Shown piece by piece: positions 1 to 9,995 of a stretch of 37,612 bases of DNA. Position numbers and translations under genes: made by a program. The notes below the pieces were generated by a model, which worked only from the letters and a program-made list of their open reading frames with translations, was not told the origin of the DNA and did not search any database. The DNA comes from an uncultured Candidatus Saccharibacteria bacterium (GTDB taxonomy: Bacteria > Patescibacteriota > Andersenbacteria > UBA10190): NCBI GenBank assembly GCA_964371255.1, contig CAYJKV010000004.1, positions 1-37,612 on the forward strand, in the 5' to 3' direction. How positions within the stretch are numbered: the stretch's first letter is position 1; the number at the start of each line of letters is the position of its first letter.

Positions 1-63
1 AAGCCTTCCTACGGTAGGCAAGCCTTCCTACGGTAGGCAAGCCTTCCTACGGTAGGCAAGCCT
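1..63. repeat. 19-bp tandem repeat (AAGCCTTCCTACGGTAGGC) x3 plus partial copy, each unit palindromic; may extend beyond the window start
   Basis: Exact copies at 1-19, 20-38, 39-57 and AAGCCT at 58-63; internal hairpin CCTAC-G-GTAGG; no spacers. Confidence 0.95.
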
Positions 64-77
64 GAAAGGAGATTGTC

Positions 78-701
78 ATGTCTGCTGCGTTAGAAATGGT
101 GAAGGGTTGGAGTGTAGGTCAGCTGGCGGCGTTGGTACACAAGATGGGTGACGAAAACGCTCAAAGGATGCTGACGTGTCGCAAAGTCACAGTGACTTTC
201 GACGACACTAACCAATCTGCTGCAATCACAGCGGTATCATTGGTTCTCGACTGCACCAAGCTCTTCGATCCCGTCGCTTTCCTCGGCGAAGGTTGGAAAG
301 AGTTGGAACGGGATGAACGTGCCTATGCTTTGACACAAGTCGACTTCTCCCGATGTCAGTTCCTTACCTGTCTTAAAGAAGGAGAGGGTCTGATCAAAGG
401 AGAAGAAGAGCTGCGTCGTTTCAAGGAAGAACATTCTCAGCTAATCCGCCACGGCGGCAACCAGTTTCTGGCTTTGTGGGAAGACTACCTGAAGAACGTC
501 GACAACAGTGTCCTTGAACACCTGCGCCTGACCCAAGGCATTACCTTCCTGGACTTTCCCGGGCTGATTCTGCGGAACCCGGGCAGGCACCGGGGTGTGT
601 TGCACTTGCGCTGGGTTGGTGACCACTGGCGCTGGAACTGCTACTGGCTTGGTGGCGAGTGGGATGGCCGGGTTCGGTCGTCTGTTTCTCCTGCAAGTTA
701 G
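78..701 (+). CDS. Hypothetical protein, probable DGR target (copy 1) with C-terminal variable region
   Basis: 207 aa, GAAAGGAG upstream; paralog of 8113-8730; Trp-rich C-terminus HRGVLHLRWVGDHWRWNCYWLGGEWDGRVRSSVSPAS resembles CLec-type DGR variable regions. Confidence 0.8.
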   Translation: MSAALEMVKGWSVGQLAALVHKMGDENAQRMLTCRKVTVTFDDTNQSAAITAVSLVLDCTKLFDPVAFLGEGWKELERDERAYALTQVDFSRCQFLTCLKEGEGLIKGEEELRRFKEEHSQLIRHGGNQFLALWEDYLKNVDNSVLEHLRLTQGITFLDFPGLILRNPGRHRGVLHLRWVGDHWRWNCYWLGGEWDGRVRSSVSPAS

Positions 702-716
702 CCCTTAGTGCTTGAG
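573..716 (+). repeat. Putative DGR variable region 1 (573-677) plus invariant IMH-like 3' segment (676-716)
   Basis: Ungapped alignment to 8602-8745: 21 mismatches in 15 codons, 19 at codon positions 1-2, 15 with A in one copy; then 41 identical bp spanning the stop. Confidence 0.7.
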
Positions 717-866
717 CTTCTTTGCTCTGGCCCTTGGAAACTTTGTTCTTGATATTTTCGGTGGATCGATTTGAGCTTCATGTAATTTGAAAAAATTGCA
801 GTGGCTCTTTTTTATTACACTTTCGTATCGTGTTTTGTGGTTGTGGTTTTTTGTTTTTGGATTTTG

Positions 867-941
867 AATTTGTTTCTCCCGAAGGGATCCCCTTGGGAGG
901 ATTTAAGAGTTTCGTCCCTAGGGGACCCCATAGGGGGATTT
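867..941. repeat. 75-bp palindrome-rich dispersed repeat, copy 1 (inverted relative to 2210-2284)
   Basis: Reverse complement of 2210-2284 with one mismatch; modules TCCCGAAGGGATCCCCTTGGGA and CCCTAGGGGACCCCATAGGGG. Confidence 0.92.
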
Positions 942-947
942 CGGATT

Positions 948-2132
948 TTATGGCAATATCTGCTTTATCTTCTCGTGGGCTTTAGTCTCGGCAGCCTCGA
1001 TGGATGGGGCGATAACTTTGAAGACCAGGGCGCCGTTTTCTTTGGTGGCAGATAGCATCTCCTGGATTTCACGGCGGCGGGGACGCAAGCCGTGACCTAG
1101 TAAAAGATAGGCATGGTAGGCGCGGTCGTCAGTCATGGACAGGCTGGAGGATGGGGAGGACGGATCCTCGAAAAGCAGGAAGGCGGCATTGAAACCAGCG
1201 ATATTGTTAGCCAGTTCCTGCATGACGGCAGCTACATCGGCGGCACTGGCGCCGCTTTCGGTGAAGTCGTTCTTTTCGAGGATGGTCCAGTAAAGCTGGA
1301 CTTGTTCTTCGTAGCGCAGATGGGCATAGACAGAACCGGCTAATTTAATCAGTTTGAGCGGTTTGGTTTTAACCAAGTACTGAATAACCAATTCCCGCTT
1401 GGCTTGCAGTTCGATCAAGTTAGCGGCGACTTGAAAGGAGCGGGGAGTGGTAGAGGGTCTTTGAAAAGAGTCCGTGCCCGAGACGATGCCGGCATAGAGG
1501 GCCGTGGCAACGTCCTGGTTGAGCAGGTCGGGAGAGCGGGCGGAAATAAAATCAAAAACAACTTCAGCGCAGGAGCCGGCTGTGATGTCGACTAAGTTCA
1601 CCGTGCCAAACTGTTCATTGGCAGCGCGATGATCAATGTTGATCAGCGGGGTATTGTAAAAAAAGTCAGCGTGCTTGGTAAAGGTGGGGCCGAGTTCTTC
1701 CAGGTCGGTGGCACCGATAATAATAATAGCGTCATAGGGGAGCAGACGGACCGTTGTTTCCAGCTGGTCTTTGTGAAGCGGCGTGCTGGCGGGGAAAGTG
1801 ATGTGCAGGCGAGTGCCGCCGTTCAGTTCTTGTTGTTGAATGTTTTTGATCGTGTGCGGGCCGACCATGTCGATTACCAACTCAGGCTGTTCGGTTGGTG
1901 CAGTTTTGACTTGGGATGAGCCGGCCAGGAATTGCAGGGACGTCGGGACGTGGGAGACACTCACCTGATCGATGATGCGGCGGTCTTTAGAGGAGGAGGG
2001 TGGCTGGAGAGTAAGAAAAAGAGCGATCATTGAAGCGATGGCATCCCAGGATGATTTTACTGGGACGGTGAGTAAGAGATTACTGGCGCGGTTGAGGATG
2101 GCCGTGGCTTGTTGAATTTCTGACAGAGACAT
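948..2132 (-). CDS. DHH-family phosphoesterase-like protein (NrnA/c-di-AMP PDE-like) with degenerate motifs
   Basis: PLINIDHRAANEQFG (DHH motif as DHR), AGSCAEVV, VATALYAGIVSGTDSF; motif I reduced to SSWDAIAS. Confidence 0.8.
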   Translation of the reverse strand: MSLSEIQQATAILNRASNLLLTVPVKSSWDAIASMIALFLTLQPPSSSKDRRIIDQVSVSHVPTSLQFLAGSSQVKTAPTEQPELVIDMVGPHTIKNIQQQELNGGTRLHITFPASTPLHKDQLETTVRLLPYDAIIIIGATDLEELGPTFTKHADFFYNTPLINIDHRAANEQFGTVNLVDITAGSCAEVVFDFISARSPDLLNQDVATALYAGIVSGTDSFQRPSTTPRSFQVAANLIELQAKRELVIQYLVKTKPLKLIKLAGSVYAHLRYEEQVQLYWTILEKNDFTESGASAADVAAVMQELANNIAGFNAAFLLFEDPSSPSSSLSMTDDRAYHAYLLLGHGLRPRRREIQEMLSATKENGALVFKVIAPSIEAAETKAHEKIKQILP

Positions 2133-2209
2133 AGTGAGTAGTTATTGAAGGCTGAGAGAATAATCTATGAACAGCGCCTGTCACGGCCGGTCCCAATGGA
2201 ATATAAGGA

Positions 2210-2284
2210 AAATCCCCCTATGGGGTCCCCTAGGGACGAAACTCTTAAATCCTCCCAAAGGGATCCCTTCGGGAGAAACAAATT
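2210..2284. repeat. 75-bp palindrome-rich dispersed repeat, copy 2
   Basis: Inverted copy of 867-941. Confidence 0.92.
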
Positions 2285-2623
2285 AGAAATTAAAAACTGC
2301 AGAAAGATGAAACAGCAGCCGTGTTTCAATCCGGCAGGGGAAGGATTAATCAATATAGAGCCGTGAGCACACACCATAAGAGAATGACAGGTTAGCTGCG
2401 GATTAATTTATCGAGTTTAACAGTGTTGATCATAAATCTAGATATGGTAACGGTATTCGGTTTTGTTTGGAACAGCAGAGGTGGGGAAAAGTGCTGGTGA
2501 TATTAATGGCGAGAGAATAATCCAGGGAAAATACGTCTGACTTAAATAGATGTAGATTAAAAAATTGAGAAAGGGCCGTGATAAAAGCTTCCCGCGAGCG
2601 GGAGAAAGAGATACGCTGTGTTT

Positions 2624-3412
2624 ATGTTATTGAATGAGGTGATAATATTGGGCCTGGTGCAAGGATTGACGGAATTTTTGCCGGTTAGTTCATCGGGCCA
2701 TTTAGTGGCAGTGCGAGCTATTTTTAACTTTTCTGACATTGAAGGCAATGCGGTTGATGCTTTTTTGCATTTGGGCACATTATTAGCCGTGCTGGTTTTT
2801 TATAACCGGGTATGGTGGGGAATGATCAGGAGTGTGGTAACAAACGACAGTGAAGGGCGCGATAAGCGGGAACTAGCGGCTAAGTTGGCTTTAGCCACAG
2901 TACCGGCAGCGGTAGCTGGGTACCTGTGGCAGGACCAGGTAGCGCGTTATTTCCGGGAACCAAATACGGTGGCCGCGAGTTTGTTAGTTACCGCGGTTAT
3001 CTTAGCGACGGCGGATTGGTTAGCGATAAAAAAGATTACGATAAAGCGAGCGAGTTTTTTGGACGCGGGATTGATTGGGTTAGCGCAGGTGGTGGCTTTA
3101 CTGCCCGGAATATCAAGGTCTGGCATGACAATGGCGGCTGGCCGGTGGCGGGGGTTATCCCGCAGACAGGCAACCAACTTTTCCTTTTTATTGTCCGCGC
3201 CGATTATCGCGGGGGCCAGCCTGACAAGCTTGGCTTCGCTAGCAAGTAACGGGACGTTATCCTGGGGACAGATGGCAATAGGACTATTAGTTTCGTTCGG
3301 GGCTGGTTTAATAGCGATATTTTTATTGTTAAAGGTAGTGGAGAGAATATCGCTACGACCGTTCGCGGTGTACTTGGCAGCCTTGGCCATACTGCTTGTG
3401 TTGGTTGGTTGA
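2624..3412 (+). CDS. uppP: Undecaprenyl-diphosphate phosphatase (BacA/UppP)
   Basis: LGLVQGLTEFLPVSSSGHL and ALLPGISRSGMT signatures; multi-TM; ATG 2624 preferred over GTG 2618. Confidence 0.97.
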   Translation: MLLNEVIILGLVQGLTEFLPVSSSGHLVAVRAIFNFSDIEGNAVDAFLHLGTLLAVLVFYNRVWWGMIRSVVTNDSEGRDKRELAAKLALATVPAAVAGYLWQDQVARYFREPNTVAASLLVTAVILATADWLAIKKITIKRASFLDAGLIGLAQVVALLPGISRSGMTMAAGRWRGLSRRQATNFSFLLSAPIIAGASLTSLASLASNGTLSWGQMAIGLLVSFGAGLIAIFLLLKVVERISLRPFAVYLAALAILLVLVG

Positions 3413-3454
3413 GAAGGATTCATAGGCGGTGTTAAGTGATCTTCTATAGCCGAT

Positions 3455-3925
3455 ATGAGAACGGGCAGTCTTAAGATCAGCAGTGTGGCGGAGATGCAGC
3501 AGTTAGCCGAGTTAGCGGCTAAAGAAATAACTGGTGGTACTGTCTTGTGGTTGGAAGGAGAGCTGGGGGCTGGTAAGACTACCTTTGTACAAGGATTGGC
3601 GCGGGAGTTAGGGATAGACGAGAAAGTGACTTCGCCGAGTTTTACGGTGGTGAGTGAATACCCAGCGAGCCATAAGAACGGATTAAGACTGATCCATGTT
3701 GATTTGTATAGATTAAACAAAGGAGCTGAAGACGACATAGCCGTAAAAGACGCGTTAGAGAAGGCGACGAATACGGATCGGGTGACCGCGATTGAATGGG
3801 CGGACCGATTGCCGCAAGACTGTTTGGAGGGGAAGGCGGCGGCGGACAAGATATGGCGGATAAGGTTCTCGCATGGTAAGAGTCCAGAAGAAAGAAAGGT
3901 AGAATTTGAGAAGGGAATAAGATGA
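3455..3925 (+). CDS. tsaE: tRNA threonylcarbamoyladenosine biosynthesis ATPase TsaE
   Basis: LEGELGAGKTTFVQG, VTSPSF, HVDLYRL, IEWADR. Confidence 0.97.
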   Translation: MRTGSLKISSVAEMQQLAELAAKEITGGTVLWLEGELGAGKTTFVQGLARELGIDEKVTSPSFTVVSEYPASHKNGLRLIHVDLYRLNKGAEDDIAVKDALEKATNTDRVTAIEWADRLPQDCLEGKAAADKIWRIRFSHGKSPEERKVEFEKGIR

Positions 3926-6705
3926 CTGAGATGGCACCAAAAAAAGAAAAAATTAAATTAGCTTTATTAGATTCGCACGCGTTGATTCATCGGGCGTATC
4001 ACGCGCTGCCGCCGATGACAACTAGCGATGGCAGGCCGACTGGGGCAGTGTTTGGTTTTACTGCCATGCTGCTGAAAATGTTGAAAACAATTAAACCTAC
4101 CCATGTGGCGGCCGCTTTTGATTTGAAGGGACCGACTTTTCGGCACCTAGCATACAGTGAATATAAGGCGCATCGGAAAAAACCAGAGGAAGACTTGATC
4201 GCGCAATTCGTGATTGTGCGAGAGGTGTTAACAGCCATGAATATCCCAATTATCGATAAGAGCGGATTTGAGGCGGACGATATTATCGGCACAATTGCCA
4301 AACAGGTGATGGGGCAGGCCAAAGTGGTGATCGTAACGGGCGACAAAGACGCGCTGCAGTTGGTCGACGAGGACGTGACGGTCTTTACTTCAAGGAAAGG
4401 GATGACTGATACGGTGCTATTTGATGAAGCGCTAGTGCGAGAGCAATATGGCTTTGGACCGAGGTTGTTACCTGATTATAAAGGCCTAGCGGGGGATCCG
4501 TCGGATAATATCCCGGGGGTGGCGGGGATAGGGGATAAGACGGCCAAGGAGCTGGTGAGCAAATTTGGTGCCATTGAGGAGATCTATCAGCATATAGACG
4601 AAGTAGCTAACCGAGCTAAAACACGGTTAGAGAAACACAAGAAAGAGGCGCTGTTCAGCCGCGAGCTGGCGACGATTAAGAGAGACGTGAGTATTGACTT
4701 TGATATTAATGAAGCAAGGATGGATGACTTTGACGTCGAGGTTGTGAGACAAGTGTTTGAAAAGTTAGAATTTCGCAGTTTATTGGGAAGGCTGCCAGAA
4801 AGTGCGCGAGGCGGGATACAGCCAACGCTGTTCAGGGAACCAGCCAGACCGGCAGGAGCAGCAAGACCCGCGAGGCCAACAAGTGCGGCCGGCGGGCGGT
4901 TGGATAATTTTCATCTGGCGGAGAGTGAGGCGGAGCAGGAGAAATTAAGGAAGCGTCTGCGGGGCGAAAAACTAATCGCAGTGGATACAGAGAATGAAAG
5001 ATTGGGGGCGCGGGAGTATCCGATAGTCGGGCTAAGCGTGGCGATAAAAAACGGGGGAAAAATAGAGGCTTGGTACGTGCCGACAAATCGGCAGCAAGTT
5101 AAGAGCTGGCGGGAAATATTAGAGAGTCCGAGGATCGGGAAGATGGGGCATAATTTAAAATACGACGCTGAAGTATTAGCCCAATCAGGGATTGAACTTC
5201 GACCAATTGTCTTTGATACGATGGTCGCCAGCTATTTAATTAATCCAGGTTCACGGCAGCATGGGTTAGATTTTTTGGCAGGACAAGAATTGGGATACAA
5301 CTGTATCCCAATAACCGATCTGATTGGCACGGGTAAGAAGCAGCTAATGATGAGCGAAGTACCGCTCGAACGGATAGTGTCTTATGCCTGCGAGGACGCG
5401 GCTGTAGCCTGGAGGCTGTATGAATTATTTCAGACGAAACTGGCAGAACAGGGATTAACGCGAGTATTGGAGGAGTTAGAAGTGCCTTTGATACCAATTT
5501 TAGCGGAGATGGAGCTGGCCGGCGTGAAGATTGACGCGGCCGTATTAGGGCGGCTTGAGAAAACCGTGACGGAGACACGAAATGGTTTGCAGAAAAAAAT
5601 CTGGCAAGCGGCAGGCAAGGAGTTTAACGTCAATTCCACGCAACAGTTGCGTAAAATATTATTTGAAGAGCTGCAACTGCCGATCGCTGGCATCGCCCGC
5701 ACGCAGTCGGGATATTCTACAGCCGCAGCCGAGTTAGATAAGCTAAGGGGCCAACATCCAATAATTGTCTGGCTTGAAGAATATCGGGAAGTCAGCAAGC
5801 TGCTGAATACTTATATTGAGACGCTGCCGGAATTGGCGGACAAGAAAACAGGCAGAATTTATGCCAAATTTAATCAGGCAGTAACGGCAACGGGAAGATT
5901 ATCGTCATCGGATCCGAACTTGCAAAATATTCCGATCAGGACGGATTTAGGAAAAGAAATAAGGGCGGCTTTTGTGGCTGAGCGGGGTAAGCGGTTGGTG
6001 AAGGCCGACTACTCGCAGCTGGAACTGCGGGTAGCGGCTCATATCGCGCGAGACGAAAAGATGATGGCGGCCTTTCAGGCCGGAGAAGATATCCATAGCG
6101 CAACGGCAGCCTGGGTGAACGGGATAGACATAGCCAGGGTAACGGAAAAACAACGGCGGCAGGCCAAGACGTTAAATTTTGGCGTACTGTATGGTATGGG
6201 TCCGCAGAAATTTGCCAGGTCAGCGGACGTATCGGTCGAAGAGGCACGGTCCTTTATCGAAAGGTATAAAGAGCAATACGCGGGAATTGCCCGATGGATT
6301 GAGGCAACGATTCGACAGGCGCGGGAGTTGGGTTTTGTGGAAACATTGCTGGGCAGGCGACGTTATATGCCGGAGATTAATGCGCGGGCGCCGATGGTCC
6401 GGTCGGGGGCGGAGAGAGCCGCGTTCAATTTTCCGGTGCAGGGGACGGCGGCGGACATATTAAAGAAGGCAATGGTGGAATTGGCGGCGGCGCTGCAAAA
6501 AGATTGGCCGGAGACCAAAATGGTGCTGACGGTGCATGATGAACTTGTTTGTGAGGTGCCGGAAGAGCAAGCGGAAGCAGTAGCGAAGGTGATGAAGAGG
6601 ACAATGGAGGGAGCTGTTAGATTGGACGTGCCGGTGATTGTTGAGGTGTCGGTGGGGAAAAATTGGAGGGACATGAAAAAAGTAGAGAGGATATCGGAAG
6701 AGTGA
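3922..6705 (+). CDS. polA: DNA polymerase I (5'-3' exonuclease, 3'-5' exo-like and polymerase domains)
   Basis: LLDSHALIHRAYHA, GFEADDIIGT, GDPSDNIPGVAGIG, TGRLSSSDPNLQNIP, ADYSQLELR, AKTLNFGVLYG, VHDELV; start may be ATG 3931. Confidence 0.99.
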   Translation: MTEMAPKKEKIKLALLDSHALIHRAYHALPPMTTSDGRPTGAVFGFTAMLLKMLKTIKPTHVAAAFDLKGPTFRHLAYSEYKAHRKKPEEDLIAQFVIVREVLTAMNIPIIDKSGFEADDIIGTIAKQVMGQAKVVIVTGDKDALQLVDEDVTVFTSRKGMTDTVLFDEALVREQYGFGPRLLPDYKGLAGDPSDNIPGVAGIGDKTAKELVSKFGAIEEIYQHIDEVANRAKTRLEKHKKEALFSRELATIKRDVSIDFDINEARMDDFDVEVVRQVFEKLEFRSLLGRLPESARGGIQPTLFREPARPAGAARPARPTSAAGGRLDNFHLAESEAEQEKLRKRLRGEKLIAVDTENERLGAREYPIVGLSVAIKNGGKIEAWYVPTNRQQVKSWREILESPRIGKMGHNLKYDAEVLAQSGIELRPIVFDTMVASYLINPGSRQHGLDFLAGQELGYNCIPITDLIGTGKKQLMMSEVPLERIVSYACEDAAVAWRLYELFQTKLAEQGLTRVLEELEVPLIPILAEMELAGVKIDAAVLGRLEKTVTETRNGLQKKIWQAAGKEFNVNSTQQLRKILFEELQLPIAGIARTQSGYSTAAAELDKLRGQHPIIVWLEEYREVSKLLNTYIETLPELADKKTGRIYAKFNQAVTATGRLSSSDPNLQNIPIRTDLGKEIRAAFVAERGKRLVKADYSQLELRVAAHIARDEKMMAAFQAGEDIHSATAAWVNGIDIARVTEKQRRQAKTLNFGVLYGMGPQKFARSADVSVEEARSFIERYKEQYAGIARWIEATIRQARELGFVETLLGRRRYMPEINARAPMVRSGAERAAFNFPVQGTAADILKKAMVELAAALQKDWPETKMVLTVHDELVCEVPEEQAEAVAKVMKRTMEGAVRLDVPVIVEVSVGKNWRDMKKVERISEE

Positions 6706-6719
6706 GACGAGAACAATTT

Positions 6720-6854
6720 CCAATTTTCAATTTTTCCCTAAGGGATCCCTTCGGGACAATTTTCAAATAAATATCAATACTTCAATTTTCAAACAGGGAT
6801 GCATAAAAATTCCAATATCTAAATCCCCCCTATGGGGTCGCCTAGGGATAAACT
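6720..6854. repeat. Third, rearranged occurrence of the palindromic modules embedded in CAATTTT heptamer runs
   Basis: CCCTAAGGGATCCCTTCGGGA at about 6736-6756 and AAATCCCCCCTATGGGGTCGCCTAGGGA from 6821; repeated CAATTTTCAA. Confidence 0.8.
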
Positions 6855-6925
6855 GGAGAAATCGTAAACATGGACTAAGTCTGAGTCTTAAACCGGTGTT
6901 CTTCTCTTGTTTTTTCATTTTTCGT

Positions 6926-7926
6926 TGTTTATTCTTCATACATTTGTCCCCTGAAACGTAGCAAGTTTTTCTACTGGCGTTAAGCCATCCAGTCCTAAGT
7001 GGGGACATACTTCGTTGTACCAGCGGGCGTAAGCCCGCTGTTTTCGTCGTGCTTCCGGGACAGTGTCGAATCGTACTTTGTTCCAGAATCTCTCCCGGTC
7101 GTTACGATGACTGCGTTCGACTTTCCCGTTCTGCGCCGGCTTGCCCGGCGCGATGAGGTAGTGGACAAGTCCTAATTCAGCACATACATGATCAAAAATG
7201 TGGAGACGTGGCTTCATTGGGTTGGCGCTCTTAGGATAGCCGACGTAGTAATTGGTGAAGATGCTGGCATTGTCGGTTTTAACCGCTTGCACGGGAAACG
7301 GGGCACTGTCCATAACCATCCGGAGAAACTGGACGGCAGTTCGGTTGCTTTGCTCACTCGTCGCCCATAAATACCGCCACCTGGTGCAGCAATCAATGGC
7401 GGTGAACTGAAACAGCCATTTGCCCTTGAGTTTGCGGACGTAGACCACATCAATCTCAATAATCTCACCTGGCACCGTGGTCTTTGGTTTCCAAGTCTCC
7501 TTCTTCTTCAAGCGCTTTCGTGAGCGTGACAGTCCCTCGCGTTTCAAGAGCTTAGCCAAGCCGCTAGCGGAGACCACGATCCCTTCCCGTTTAAGCAGGT
7601 GCACCAGCACGTCGGGACCTAAACTCGTTTGAGCACGCAGTTGCCGGACTCGTGTAATGAGCTGATCGTCATACTGTCTGGCATGAGAATGTGGCCGGCG
7701 GGATTGCGGAGTGAGACCGGCTGTGCCGCCTCGACGCCAGGCAGCCACCCAGCGCTTGAGGGTGCGGTAGGTAAAGGAGATATGTCAGCGATCTCTCTCA
7801 ACGAGCGCTGACCATCTAGATACGGCTGTATCCACCGCAGCCGCTCCGCGGCTGCGTCTGCAGGTAATGTTTGAGACATACGCCCCATCCTACGGCTTGA
7901 GGGGACATATGTATGTGGGGAGTACC
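6926..7926 (-). mobile_element. IS481-family insertion sequence (about 1.0 kb)
   Basis: Inverted repeats CATACATTTGTCCCCTGAA (6937-6955) and TTGAGGGGACATATGTATG (7897-7915), 2 mismatches; TGT at 6926; TCGT(T) on both flanks (6922, 7927) as a candidate target duplication. Confidence 0.85.
6936..7879 (-). pseudogene. IS481-family DDE (rve) transposase split by a 1-nt frameshift near 7773
   Basis: N-part MSQTLP..ERLRWI..LREIADISP continues in another frame as YRTLKRWVAAWRRGG; DDE motifs IEIDVVY, KTDNASIF, QNGKVERSH; PHLGLDGLTP. Confidence 0.88.
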
Positions 7927-7934
7927 TCGTTTGA

Positions 7935-7963
7935 TTGACGGGATGTATGTTTTAGGGTAATGT
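7935..7963 (+). promoter_or_regulatory. Candidate sigma70 promoter for 8113-8730
   Basis: TTGACG-N17-TAATGT. Confidence 0.35.
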
Positions 7964-8112
7964 GGGGTGTTCGGTTTTAGGTTTGACTGACTAATTGGAA
8001 AGTCAGGAATGGTTGGCTCTTTTTTAATTATTGCTTACTGCTTAAGGGTAAGCCCCAAGGCCTCGGGTAGAGGCGAATTTTTGAGCGACTAGCTCAAGAA
8101 AGGTGGTATGTC

Positions 8113-8730
8113 ATGACATGTAAGTACAGCGATTGGTCGAGAGGGCAGGATGAAGCATTGTTGAACAAATTGGGAGGGGAGGAAGTGGCAATGAAGCTTC
8201 TCTCCTGCCGCCAGGTCACCGTAACCTTCGACGATTCCACTCAAATTGCCAAGGTGGTGGGTGTCCTGCCAATGCTCGACTGCACCAAGCTCTTCGATCC
8301 CACCGATTTCATCGGGAAAGACTGGAAAGAGTTGGAACGGGATGAACGCGCCTATGCTTTGACACAAGTCGACTTCTCCCGATGTCAGTTCCTGTCCTGC
8401 CTTAAGGAAGGAGAGGGGCACATCAAGGGAGAAGAGAGACTGCGCCGGCTCAAGAAAGATCATTCCCAGCTAATCCGTCTTGGCGGCAACCAGTTTTTAG
8501 CCCTGTGGGAAGATTACCAGAAGAACGGCGATAACAGTGTCCTTGAACACCTGCGCCTGACTCAAGGAATTACCTACCTGAACTTCCCCGGCCTGATTCT
8601 GCAGAACCCGAGCAGGCACCGGAATGTGTTGTACTTGCGTTGGAGGGGTGGCCACTGGCGCTGGCGCTGCAGCTGGCTTGATAACGAGTGGAATGACCGG
8701 GGTTGGTCGTCTGTTTCTCCTGCAAGTTAG
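8113..8730 (+). CDS. Hypothetical protein, probable DGR target (copy 2)
   Basis: 205 aa paralog of 78-701; C-terminus HRNVLYLRWRGGHWRWRCSWLDNEWNDRGWSSVSPAS. Confidence 0.8.
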   Translation: MTCKYSDWSRGQDEALLNKLGGEEVAMKLLSCRQVTVTFDDSTQIAKVVGVLPMLDCTKLFDPTDFIGKDWKELERDERAYALTQVDFSRCQFLSCLKEGEGHIKGEERLRRLKKDHSQLIRLGGNQFLALWEDYQKNGDNSVLEHLRLTQGITYLNFPGLILQNPSRHRNVLYLRWRGGHWRWRCSWLDNEWNDRGWSSVSPAS

Positions 8731-8745
8731 CCCTTAGTGCTTGAG
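8602..8745 (+). repeat. Putative DGR variable region 2 plus invariant 3' segment
   Basis: Counterpart of 573-716 at a constant offset of 8029. Confidence 0.7.
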
Positions 8746-8776
8746 ATTTTGTTCTTGATCTTGGTCCTTTGTTTTT

Positions 8777-8805
8777 AGCCCTTCGCGTGTGCGTCGGGCT
8801 TTTTT
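8777..8805 (+). terminator. Hairpin plus T-tract after the second paralog
   Basis: AGCCC-TT-CGC-GTGT-GCG-TC-GGGCT followed by TTTTT. Confidence 0.6.
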
Positions 8806-8984
8806 ATTTATGCCAGCTATGGACATAAAGGCGGGACTTATGTATGGTGGAGGGTCGTCGTGCGCGTACACCGGCCGGCGATTATGCCTGCCGTTGTGGA
8901 TTTAAGGTGGCTGTCGTGTCGGCAGTCACCAAAGTCTAGGAAAACGCGCCACAATTGCCGGCAACAGAAAAAGGGAGTGGAGAG

Positions 8985-9995
8985 ATGAAATCCACATGGC
9001 TGTTGCTCTTTATCAATTTGTTGTGGGTTGGATCAGCTGCTGGAGCAGACGGACCGCCAATTGTCGAGGAGAAGAAACATGGGATGGCGGATGACCGGCT
9101 GAAAGCAGAAAAGGGAGCGGAGGTGAAGGAAGGTGGCTATCTGCTGGAAACGACGAAGACGCTGATTAAGAACTACGGAGCGACCTGTCCTGATTTTCCG
9201 TGTGCCACAGAGAGTATTACGCATTGGAAAATTAGAGGAAGGAGGCTGACTGGCGATAGGTTCGAAAGGCTGATTCCGCTATTGGAGCAGTTTCCATTGT
9301 TGCAGCGGCTGGATCTGGAAGATAACCCGGTGACAGACGAGGACATTAAGTTGTTAGTAGAGTCCAAAGTTGAACTAGTCGAGATCAATCTGGACAAAAC
9401 CAGAATTACTGACAAGGCGTTGTCTTTGCTGGCAGACAGGTATCCTAGCTTGAACAGTTTAGGATTAAACCTAACAGCTGTTTCGGACGAGGGGCTCAAG
9501 GCATTGGAATCGTTGGACCTGAACTACCTGCACATTGGTGGCACGAAGGTTACCAATAAAGGCATGGAGTCAGTGGCTAACTTCGTTAATTTGCGCGATT
9601 TGAATATCGCGCTGACAAAAGTTGACGGAAAAGGCTTGGCTACCATGATGGCCGTGGAGGTTGATAGCGCCACTTTTAGTAAGTTGTTCAAGGACCATCG
9701 ATTAGATATTGAGGCTTGGATAGAGAGGAAAGGACAGCAGTCATATCAAAGAAGCCCTTCCGACGCCATGTACGCCGGGCAGGGGCGCAATTGGATGATG
9801 AGTGAGTTTCACATCGATCTAACGGAATTACGGATCTATGGGCTGGACAAATCAGATTGGGTCCTGAGAGGACGCGGTGTGCAAAATCTGGAACGTCTCT
9901 GGTGGATCCGTTCCGGCGTGACCTTACGAGATCTGATCTGTGTACAGGCTGTAAGCTCGAAGAGAGTTCTGTTTTATTCCCGTCCTGACTTCTAG
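8985..9995 (+). CDS. Secreted leucine-rich-repeat protein
   Basis: Signal peptide MKSTWLLLFINLLWVGSAAGA; about 5 LRRs of type LxxLxLxxTxVTDxGLxxL (LQRLDLEDNPVTD, LNSLGLNLTAVSDEGL, LRDLNIALTKVDGKGL). Confidence 0.85.
   Translation: MKSTWLLLFINLLWVGSAAGADGPPIVEEKKHGMADDRLKAEKGAEVKEGGYLLETTKTLIKNYGATCPDFPCATESITHWKIRGRRLTGDRFERLIPLLEQFPLLQRLDLEDNPVTDEDIKLLVESKVELVEINLDKTRITDKALSLLADRYPSLNSLGLNLTAVSDEGLKALESLDLNYLHIGGTKVTNKGMESVANFVNLRDLNIALTKVDGKGLATMMAVEVDSATFSKLFKDHRLDIEAWIERKGQQSYQRSPSDAMYAGQGRNWMMSEFHIDLTELRIYGLDKSDWVLRGRGVQNLERLWWIRSGVTLRDLICVQAVSSKRVLFYSRPDF

What the first reader, a model, noticed from the sequence alone, without database searches (positions are those of the whole stretch)
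78..8745. Two dispersed paralogs with DGR-style hypervariable C-termini and no RT nearby (remote targets)
Seen: over the last 35 variable codons (573-677 vs 8602-8706) there are 21 substitutions in 15 codons. 19 fall at codon positions 1-2, only one codon change is synonymous, and 15 involve an A in one copy (GGT/AAT, AAC/CGC, TAC/AGC, GGC/AAC, GAT/AAT). Trp codons are fixed, and 41 bp across the stop are identical. The middle of the genes instead shows many synonymous third-position changes. Established: DGRs mutagenise template adenines, typically AAY codons, upstream of an invariant IMH, and are frequent in CPR. Inference: both genes are diversified in trans from one AAY-rich template elsewhere in the genome, while embedded among housekeeping genes. 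Neither has a signal peptide, so the ligand would be intracellular.
Basis: partly seen in the sequence, partly recalled or inferred. Interest (0 to 1): 0.8.

Follow-up and report, generated by a model that had tools for sequence, protein, structure and literature searches.

The report
Orphaned DGR variable-region genes, no retroelement
Two small paralogous genes of an ultra-small (CPR) bacterium end in hypervariable tails of the kind written by a diversity-generating retroelement, but the genome as assembled has no such retroelement and the tails look frozen.

Summary

The two genes (78-701, 8113-8730) belong to a large, Pfam-less CPR protein family. Thirteen more distant members sit directly upstream of a template repeat and bAvd, eleven of them with the RT as well. 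Those templates align in the same register as these tails, and 199 of 217 template/variable mismatches lie at template adenines. So the tails are genuine DGR variable regions on a probably C-type-lectin-like fold.

Third codon positions differ far less between the two tails (2/39) than between the gene cores (25/105). This fits both tails having been rewritten from one template after the genes diverged.

However, the 98%-complete assembly has no RT, bAvd or template. The sister species has no matching template either. Each tail is identical in 20-26 assembled contigs, whereas related clusters carry a new tail in nearly every member. Four more genes in the genome carry similar or more degenerate tails.

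Best reading (about 0.6): orphaned, frozen DGR targets after loss of the cassette. Main rival (about 0.25): an active cassette on DNA missing from the bin.

The parts
78..701 (+). Copy A coding sequence, 207 aa. It has an N-terminal module of about 50 aa, a conserved core and a variable tail.
   Evidence: ORF. It belongs to a family of 1132 cluster representatives at E <= 1e-3. No Pfam family reaches its cut-off. AlphaFold2 model with mean pLDDT 89.5.
567..696 (+). Copy A variable region (VR). It aligns in register with the TR/VR pairs of cassette-linked homologues and ends at ...GCAA.
   Evidence: Alignment with 12 TRs and 12 VRs and with G042. The A/B differences are enriched in TR-adenine columns.
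676..716 (+). 41-nt block identical to 8705-8745. It holds the IMH-like 3' end of the VR, the stop codon and 15 nt of 3' flank.
   Evidence: The ...CTC(C)TGCAAGT end is shared with bona fide VRs, in G008 in a different reading frame.
8113..8730 (+). Copy B coding sequence, 205 aa.
   Evidence: ORF. 73% identical to copy A.
8596..8725 (+). Copy B variable region. It keeps an A at 11 of the 21 sites where the copies differ (copy A at 4).
8705..8745 (+). 41-nt block identical to 676-716.
8777..8807 (+). Terminator-like hairpin followed by a T run, downstream of copy B.
   Evidence: Fold (z = -3.6 for 8699-8830).

Best explanation
Both genes encode small proteins without a signal peptide. Residues from about 55 to the end form a compact, probably C-type-lectin-like domain. 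Their last 44 or so codons are a genuine DGR variable region, randomised at AAY-type codons by adenine-mutagenic retrohoming from a template repeat. Shown: the family membership, the register, the adenine-column enrichment and the IMH-like end. Inferred: A and B were last rewritten from one shared (in-trans) template after the two genes had diverged, which is why their tails share third codon positions and the 41-nt 3' block. Inferred, most likely: the cognate cassette (TR, bAvd, RT) has since been lost from this lineage. The two tails, and four further similar or more degenerate tails elsewhere in the genome, would then be frozen alleles of once-hypervariable binding proteins, kept as ordinary genes under purifying selection.
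For: Family and cassette linkage: of the 57 loci fetched with the family alignment, 10 have bAvd and RT directly downstream and 2 more have bAvd at the contig end. All 12 have a VR at the 3' end of the homologue and a TR 440-535 bp downstream, and 180 of 195 mismatches lie at TR adenines. G042, of the same GTDB family, adds a 13th pair with 19 of 22. Same register and same ...GCAAG end as A and B. 13 of 21 A/B differences fall in majority-A TR columns. Fold: VIA-align's top rows are almost all C-type-lectin-fold proteins, including the DGR variable proteins TvpA (2y3c, Z 4.1, 137 aligned) and Mtd (1yu0, Z 3.9, 115 aligned). Shared template in the past: third-position divergence 2/39 in the tail against 25/105 in the core. 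No cassette. The nhmmer controls found TRs in L048, L105, L116, L031, L008, L030 and, weakly, L029. Stasis: the copy A protein is on 19 contigs plus one variant that differs only outside the tail. Copy B is on 25 contigs plus one A/B chimera with the same tail. The C6 copy is on 18 contigs plus 4 variants without hot-spot changes. Contigs covering 8364/8373-8734 are identical to the window in 3 of 4 runs. Positive control: relatives of a cassette-linked target show 13 distinct tails in 14 members, 5 in 5 and 2 in 5. Precedent for loss: the DGR of sister species G001 has an RT split into two frames, serves another target type (18 of 25 at A) and has no template for its own two A/B-type genes. 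G016 (2 contigs, 100% complete) and G015 have such tails but no RVT_1. G051 has no RT and G052 has no matching template for its non-adjacent family member. The core is under purifying selection (positions 1+2 at 9%, position 3 at 24%).
Against: The genome is a 21-contig bin, 98% complete, so a 2-kb cassette could be missing. In relatives, cassettes often lie on short contigs (G001 C17 is 6.5 kb; G050 and G011 have a TR hit but no RVT_1). The 41-nt IMH-like block is perfectly conserved between A and B, and tail third positions are nearly identical, so any loss must be recent relative to the A/B divergence. Both observations are equally expected if the cassette still works. The contigs that show stasis may come from one study and a near-clonal population (4 runs of one study). 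Assembled contigs hide rare variants. One control cluster (4 members) and the cassette-linked pair L055/L056 also show one tail only. Five A/B differences lie in columns where none of 12 TRs has an A. This needs either drift after freezing or a lineage-specific template.
Confidence: 0.6

Rival explanations
1. One reading: both tails are being diversified now, in trans, by one DGR cassette of this organism that is simply missing from the assembly (unbinned short contig, plasmid or prophage). Activity would be low or conditional, so that one variant dominates the assemblies.
For: A and B keep an identical 41-nt IMH-like block. Their tails have very low third-position divergence (2/39 against 25/105 in the core). 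Their differences concentrate in TR-adenine columns. DGR cassettes of relatives are often on short contigs or partly unassembled. Remote targets are documented for other DGRs (Wu et al. 2018 and Paul & Eren 2022, passages read).
Against: No RT, bAvd, TR or TR-spacer signal anywhere in 1.18 Mb at 98% completeness. No matching template in the sister species. Tails are invariant over 20-26 contigs while related clusters vary in nearly every member. Wu et al. [quoted passage not shown]
Confidence: 0.25
2. The tails are serviced only occasionally by a DGR cassette carried on a mobile element (phage or plasmid) that is present in some cells or at some times. The chromosome would keep homing-competent targets without owning the machinery.
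For: The same as for the rival above, plus the recurrence of family members without any cassette in the genome (G016, G015, G045, G022, G051).
Against: No direct evidence. A scan of viral contigs with the window's 19-nt IMH-like stretch gave two matches with no similarity beyond the 19 nt. Roux et al. 2021 describe CPR clade-2 DGRs as almost entirely cellular (passage read). The other RT-less genomes carry visibly degenerate tails, which points to decay rather than service.
Confidence: 0.08
3. No retroelement was ever involved. Ordinary diversifying selection, with or without gene conversion among paralogues, produced the variable tail.
For: Chimeric alleles exist: P0018 is the A N-terminus joined to the B C-terminus, and P0004 is the B N-terminus joined to another core. 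So paralogues do recombine.
Against: The tails are homologous, codon for codon, to VRs that have adenine-specific templates next to RTs. Variable codons are NNY with conserved third positions. The 3' end is conserved at the DNA level even where it is read in another frame.
Confidence: 0.04

Closest known systems
Cellular DGRs of Patescibacteria/CPR ('DGR clade 2' of Roux et al. 2021, PMC8144416; 'CPR set' with unclassified VR classes UVR1-6 of Wu et al. 2018, PMC5758913; passages read)
   Same: Same phylum-level group. Same cassette in the homologues (target, then TR, then bAvd on the opposite strand, then RT). Small targets with no transmembrane segment or known domain. VR at the C-terminus. 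Adenine-specific mismatches.
   Different: Here there is no cassette at all in the genome, and there are six tail-bearing genes instead of the single adjacent target that Wu et al. call typical for CPR DGRs. I could not check whether this VR class is one of UVR1-6, because the supplements were not consulted. Paul et al. 2017 is not held.
Treponema denticola DGR and its variable protein TvpA (PDB 2y3c), with up to seven non-adjacent targets (number from Wu et al. 2018, passage read)
   Same: Several dispersed targets for one template. C-type-lectin-fold variable domain. TvpA is among the best structural matches (Z 4.1, rmsd 4.8, 137 aligned).
   Different: Treponema has the RT and TR in the same genome. 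TvpA is a surface lipoprotein of the FGE-like subtype (recalled). The structural match here is weak (Z < 5) and sequence identity is 4%.
Bordetella phage BPP-1 Mtd (PDB 1yu0) with its IMH and downstream hairpin (the IMH and hairpin details are recalled from Guo et al. 2011, which I saw only as an entry in the reference list of PMC8144416)
   Same: VR at the C-terminus of a C-type-lectin fold (Z 3.9, 115 aligned). TR/VR homology ends in a short conserved element, and VR and TR diverge immediately after it.
   Different: No convincing hairpin follows the VR end here (copy A fold z = 0.14). This is a chromosomal cellular gene, not a phage tail fibre.
Remote DGR targets of cyanobacteria such as Trichodesmium (Paul & Eren 2022, PMC8867640, passage read)
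   Same: Targets far from the RT, embedded among unrelated genes.
   Different: In that genome the RTs and TRs are present, and at least 11 of 18 loci with TR/VR homology show localised hypervariability in metagenomic reads. Here neither the machinery nor variability was found.

Membership tests
DGR target (variable) protein family of CPR bacteria | Homology of the whole protein to targets that lie next to TR, bAvd and RT | tested here: met
   Of 57 loci fetched with the family alignment, 12 have bAvd (10 of them also RT) directly downstream. G042, of the same GTDB family, is a further case.
DGR target (variable) protein family of CPR bacteria | C-terminal VR in the same register as VRs whose TRs differ at adenines | tested here: met
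   Alignment. 180 of 195 plus 19 of 22 mismatches lie at TR adenines in the homologues. 13 of 21 A/B differences fall in majority-A TR columns.
DGR target (variable) protein family of CPR bacteria | IMH-like conserved 3' end of the VR | tested here: met
   ...TCTCCTGCAAGT in A and B against ...CTCGCAAGT or ...TGCGCAAGT in the cassette-linked VRs. TR and VR diverge right after GCAA.
DGR target (variable) protein family of CPR bacteria | C-type-lectin fold carrying the VR | tested here: inconclusive
   The model is confident (pLDDT 89.5). Foldseek found no match at E <= 0.001. VIA-align's top 50 rows are dominated by C-type-lectin, FGE, intimin and invasin folds, including TvpA and Mtd, but every Z is below 5.
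Complete, active DGR system in this genome | DGR-type reverse transcriptase | tested here: not met
   No RVT_1 match at E <= 1. No match to the G008 DGR RT. The assembly is 98% complete in 21 contigs, so absence from the organism is not proven.
Complete, active DGR system in this genome | Template repeat differing from the VR at adenines | tested here: not met
   BLAST finds only copies A and B (and, the more distant C6 paralogue). Covariance model R1 gives 0 matches in G000 against matches in 11 of 35 family genomes, but only 106 of 358 first-look candidates were scored. nhmmer over the whole genome finds only the VRs of B (E = 0.028) and A (E = 0.5), while control TRs score 7e-30 to 0.011.
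Complete, active DGR system in this genome | Accessory protein bAvd | tested here: not met
   No PF22296 match. Two four-helix proteins match PF05635 instead and have no RT beside them.
Complete, active DGR system in this genome | VR-restricted variation among members of the population | tested here: not met
   One tail for copy A (19 + 1 contigs) and one for copy B (25 + 1). Contigs over 8364/8373-8734 have no differences in 3 of 4 runs. Control clusters show 13/14, 5/5, 2/5 and 1/4 distinct tails. Only assembled contigs were seen, so rare variants are invisible.

The most novel reading that the evidence does not exclude
A reduced CPR genome keeps several homing-competent DGR targets, with the IMH-like end and 3' flank conserved to the base in two of them, but owns no reverse transcriptase. 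The tails would be rewritten only when a cassette arrives on a mobile element or an unsampled replicon, so targeted hypermutation would be a borrowed, population-level resource rather than a fixed property of the genome.
Probability: 0.1. Interest if true: 0.8.

Novelty: new member of a known kind. Interest (0 to 1): 0.45.

Why it matters
DGR surveys start from the reverse transcriptase, so variable-region genes left behind after cassette loss, or served from afar, go uncounted (Roux et al. [quoted passage not shown]

This case shows that a 1.18-Mb genome can hold six such genes among housekeeping loci. It also shows that the family profile, the TR+spacer model and the contrast between tail and core third positions can recognise them and roughly date the last rewriting.

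If the tails are frozen, they are natural examples of binding proteins fixed after hypermutation. That bears on what these abundant, uncharacterised, apparently cytoplasmic CPR proteins bind. If a cassette does turn up, it would be a CPR DGR with remote targets, which Wu et al. 2018 did not find in that group.

Tried and rejected
- **Pfam on A and B:** only sub-threshold Death-domain hits (14.7 and 13.3 bits against a cut-off of 22.6). Rejected as noise.
- **PDB by sequence profile:** one hit at E = 0.13.
- **Foldseek against PDB:** nothing at E <= 0.001.
- **Hairpin after the VR end:** none for copy A (z = 0.14). The signal for copy B is its terminator.
- **Viral contig scan with the window's 19-nt IMH-like stretch:** two matches with no similarity beyond the 19 nt and no RT. 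Chance.
- **Laying contigs of 4 runs on 1-9000:** the tables were cut (298 'other letter' rows and 340 pieces not shown). No template-like piece and no tail variants were among the rows shown. Contigs cannot show rare variants. One contig in X3 joins 200 to 8597 and remains unexplained.
- **Fuzzy regular expression for the TR-spacer motif in the genome:** far too permissive, so discarded in favour of the covariance model and nhmmer.
- **The two PF05635 four-helix proteins of G000 as bAvd candidates:** rejected.
- **Identity of the same locus across metagenome records as a test of stasis:** weak, because a cassette-linked pair (L055/L056) was also identical.
- **Earlier notes of this scan:** nothing on these genes.
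- **Paul et al. 2017 (PMC5436926):** not held.
- **Searches for papers on orphan or cassette-less VRs** ('diversity-generating retroelement' + 'orphan'; passages): no description found. Nothing beyond these searches is claimed.
Full report
**Observation**

The window is the first 37.6 kb of contig C4 of a 1.18-Mb genome in 21 contigs, 98% complete. A source names a homologue from the sister species 'Candidatus Andersenbacteria' (CPR/Patescibacteria).

Copy A is 78-701 and copy B is 8113-8730.
- 21 substitutions in 15 codons of 573-677 against 8602-8706.
- 19 of them at codon positions 1-2.
- One synonymous codon change.
- 15 changes with an A in one copy.
- A 41-nt identical block, 676-716 = 8705-8745.

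The gene core behaves in the opposite way, with 21 synonymous and 16 non-synonymous changed codons in 107. The neighbours are housekeeping genes plus one IS481-type transposase.

**What the genes are**

Neither protein reaches any Pfam cut-off. A profile of 14 homologues nevertheless finds 1132 cluster representatives at E <= 1e-3 in 1.84 billion proteins. In the family alignment the core is highly conserved, and the last 40 or so residues alternate invariant positions (P, R, VL, L, W, W, WL, W, R, S) with hypervariable ones.

Fetching DNA around relatives gave 52 metagenome loci and 5 loci from named genomes.
- In 10 of these 57 loci a bAvd gene on the opposite strand and an RT follow the homologue directly. 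In 2 more, bAvd is cut by the contig end (Pfam confirmation of such a cassette).
- All 12 carry a 123-135-nt repeat. One copy is the 3' end of the homologue and the other lies 440-535 bp downstream.
- 180 of the 195 mismatches sit at adenines of the downstream copy.
- G042, a genome of the same GTDB family as the window, gives a 13th pair with 19 of 22.

These TRs and VRs align without ambiguity to 567-696 and 8596-8725. They share the same Trp codons and the same end at ...GCAAGT, and TR and VR diverge right after GCAA. In G008 the shared 3' sequence is read in a different frame, so it is conserved as DNA rather than as protein.

Of the 21 A/B differences, 13 lie in the 33 of 130 columns where at least half of 12 homologous TRs have an A (odds ratio 7.2, p = 1e-4). 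The tails are therefore DGR variable regions.

**Fold**

An AlphaFold2 model built on 105 family members is confident (mean pLDDT 89.5; about 98 from residue 60 onwards). Foldseek finds nothing at E <= 0.001, although its best rows are C-type lectins.

VIA-align against 48,161 chains gives only Z <= 4.5. However, the list is almost entirely C-type-lectin-fold proteins: TvpA (Z 4.1, 137 aligned), Mtd (Z 3.9, 115 aligned), FGE-like enzymes, intimin and invasin, and animal lectins. I read this as a divergent C-type-lectin-like fold. It is not proven.

**Was there one template for both?**

Third codon positions (Trp and Met codons excluded) differ at 25 of 105 codons in the core but at 2 of 39 in the tail (p = 0.009). 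Positions 1+2 differ at 19/214 in the core and 19/88 in the tail. Two tails evolving independently since the duplication should have third positions as diverged as the core.

The sister species pair shows the same trend more weakly (35/105 against 6/41). Between-genome pairs are intermediate. The third paralogue (C6) shows no such effect.

This fits both tails having been overwritten from one template after the genes diverged. It is an inference, because nucleotide-level constraint on the VR could contribute.

**Is the machinery there now?**

The assembly contains none of the expected parts:
- No third DNA copy of the tail.
- No RVT_1 match.
- No tblastn match to DGR RTs or bAvd of relatives.
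- No bAvd family match.

I built a covariance model of the TR 3' half plus the conserved spacer hairpin. Three of the 7 hairpin pairs show compensatory changes.
It finds none in G000 or G001. Only part of the first-look candidates were scored.
- An nhmmer profile run over the whole genome finds only the two VRs themselves (E = 0.028 and 0.5). It detects control TRs that were not in the model at E from 7e-30 to 0.011.

The sister species G001 has two genes of this type and no template for them. Its one DGR has an RT split over two frames and a template of another type, with 18 of 25 mismatches at A.

Family members without any RVT_1 in the genome also occur in G016 (2 contigs, 100% complete), G015, G045, G022 and G051, some with clearly degenerate tails. 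G052 has a DGR, but no template matching its non-adjacent family member.

Among the 24 loci with at least 2.5 kb downstream, 9 have the RT and 15 do not. The 15 collapse to 12 distinct places once duplicate records are merged.

**Are the tails varying?**

- The copy A protein occurs unchanged on 19 contigs. Its only variant differs at residue 21.
- Copy B occurs unchanged on 25 contigs. Its only variant is an A/B chimera with the B tail.
- The C6 copy occurs on 18 contigs plus four variants that show no hot-spot variation.
- The G001 copies are identical in several MAG records.
- Contigs of three of four runs cover 8364/8373-8734 without a difference.

As a positive control I looked at 90% clusters of relatives of the cassette-linked L065 target. 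These show 13 different tails in 14 members, 5 in 5, 2 in 5 and 1 in 4, with nearly constant cores. So the database can show DGR activity, and these genes do not show it.

Caveats: the contigs may come from one study, assemblies hide rare variants, and the read-laying output was cut.

**More tails in this genome**

A profile of the tail finds six genes:
- Copy A and copy B.
- C6:68228-68929 on the minus strand.
- Three more distant ones with other N-terminal or middle parts: C1:174411-175001, C1:232053-232643 and C3:162600-163226.

All end in ...GCAAGT before or at the stop codon, and all sit among housekeeping genes. They are too different from one another to share one template with A and B (72% identity or less).

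**Verdict**

The tails are genuine DGR variable regions (about 0.95). A shared template for A and B at some past time is likely (about 0.7).

For the present state my estimates are:
- About 0.6 on orphaned, frozen targets after loss of the cassette.
- About 0.25 on a working cassette missing from the bin.
- About 0.08 on service by a mobile cassette.
- About 0.04 on no retroelement at all.

The kind of system is known (CPR DGRs: Roux et al. 2021; Wu et al. 2018; passages read). What is new is a set of cassette-less members and a way to recognise them. In the searches and passages listed under Tried and rejected I found no description of such orphan VR genes. Paul et al. 2017 and all supplements were not seen and may bear on this.

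Noticed in passing
window 1-62: The contig starts with 3.3 tandem copies of a 19-nt unit (AAGCCTTCCTACGGTAGGC, itself partly palindromic), directly upstream of the ribosome-binding site of copy A. It probably caused the assembly break.
   Followed up: no
window 6921-7927: The IS481-type transposase gene (6936-7748, minus strand; rve, rve_3 and HTH_32 domains), together with the overlapping upstream 89-aa ORF (7619-7888, minus strand), is absent from some contigs of runs X2-X4 (joint 6921 to 7927). The insertion is therefore polymorphic in the population.
   Followed up: partly
window about 800-940, 2165-2290 and 6720-6800: A short repeated element. Its spurious ORFs share the peptide LFLPKGS(P/L)WEDLRVSSLGDPIGGF. 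Contig depth doubles or triples in bins 2101-2400 and 6601-6900, with many loose ends there. It may be the kind of repeat covered by the earlier notes e1-762225 (palindromic repeat) or e1-1553021 (MITE-like inverted-repeat elements).
   Followed up: no
window 78-233 and 8113-8277; L030 407-571; protein P0016: The N-terminal 45-50 residues of A and B recur on DGR targets with a quite different variable domain: the G008 target next to its RT (58% identity) and P0016 (75% identity). Chimeric alleles also exist (P0018, P0004). Targets are therefore assembled from shuffled modules.
   Followed up: partly
L029 (G001:C17) 4193-5750: The DGR of the sister species has its RT in two overlapping frames (4646-5344 and 5319-5750). 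7 of 25 of its TR/VR mismatches are not at adenines. One of its VRs lies on another contig (C27) and one on the same contig in a partly masked stretch. It looks like a decaying cassette.
   Followed up: partly
TR 3' flanks of L048-L096 and L114; VR 3' flanks including window 697-730: Downstream of every TR lies a conserved ...TTCATTTCTCTCC...GGAGAGTTTT hairpin. Three of its 7 pairs show compensatory changes. Downstream of the VRs, cassette-linked and orphan alike, a loosely conserved non-coding motif of the type AG(Y)CCTT(T/A)G(G/A)ACTT follows the stop codon. Neither was tested for function.
   Followed up: partly
G011:C36:3133-3236 and G050:C52:140-253: TR-like matches to model R1 in two genomes where no RVT_1 was found. 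These are probably cassettes cut by contig ends, which shows how easily DGR RTs drop out of such bins.
   Followed up: no
window 200 joined to 8597 (run X3): One contig of depth 8 aligns to copy A up to position 200 and to copy B from 8597 on, with an unknown stretch in between. It may be another paralogue or a relative with an A-like N-terminus and a B-like tail. Unexplained.
   Followed up: no
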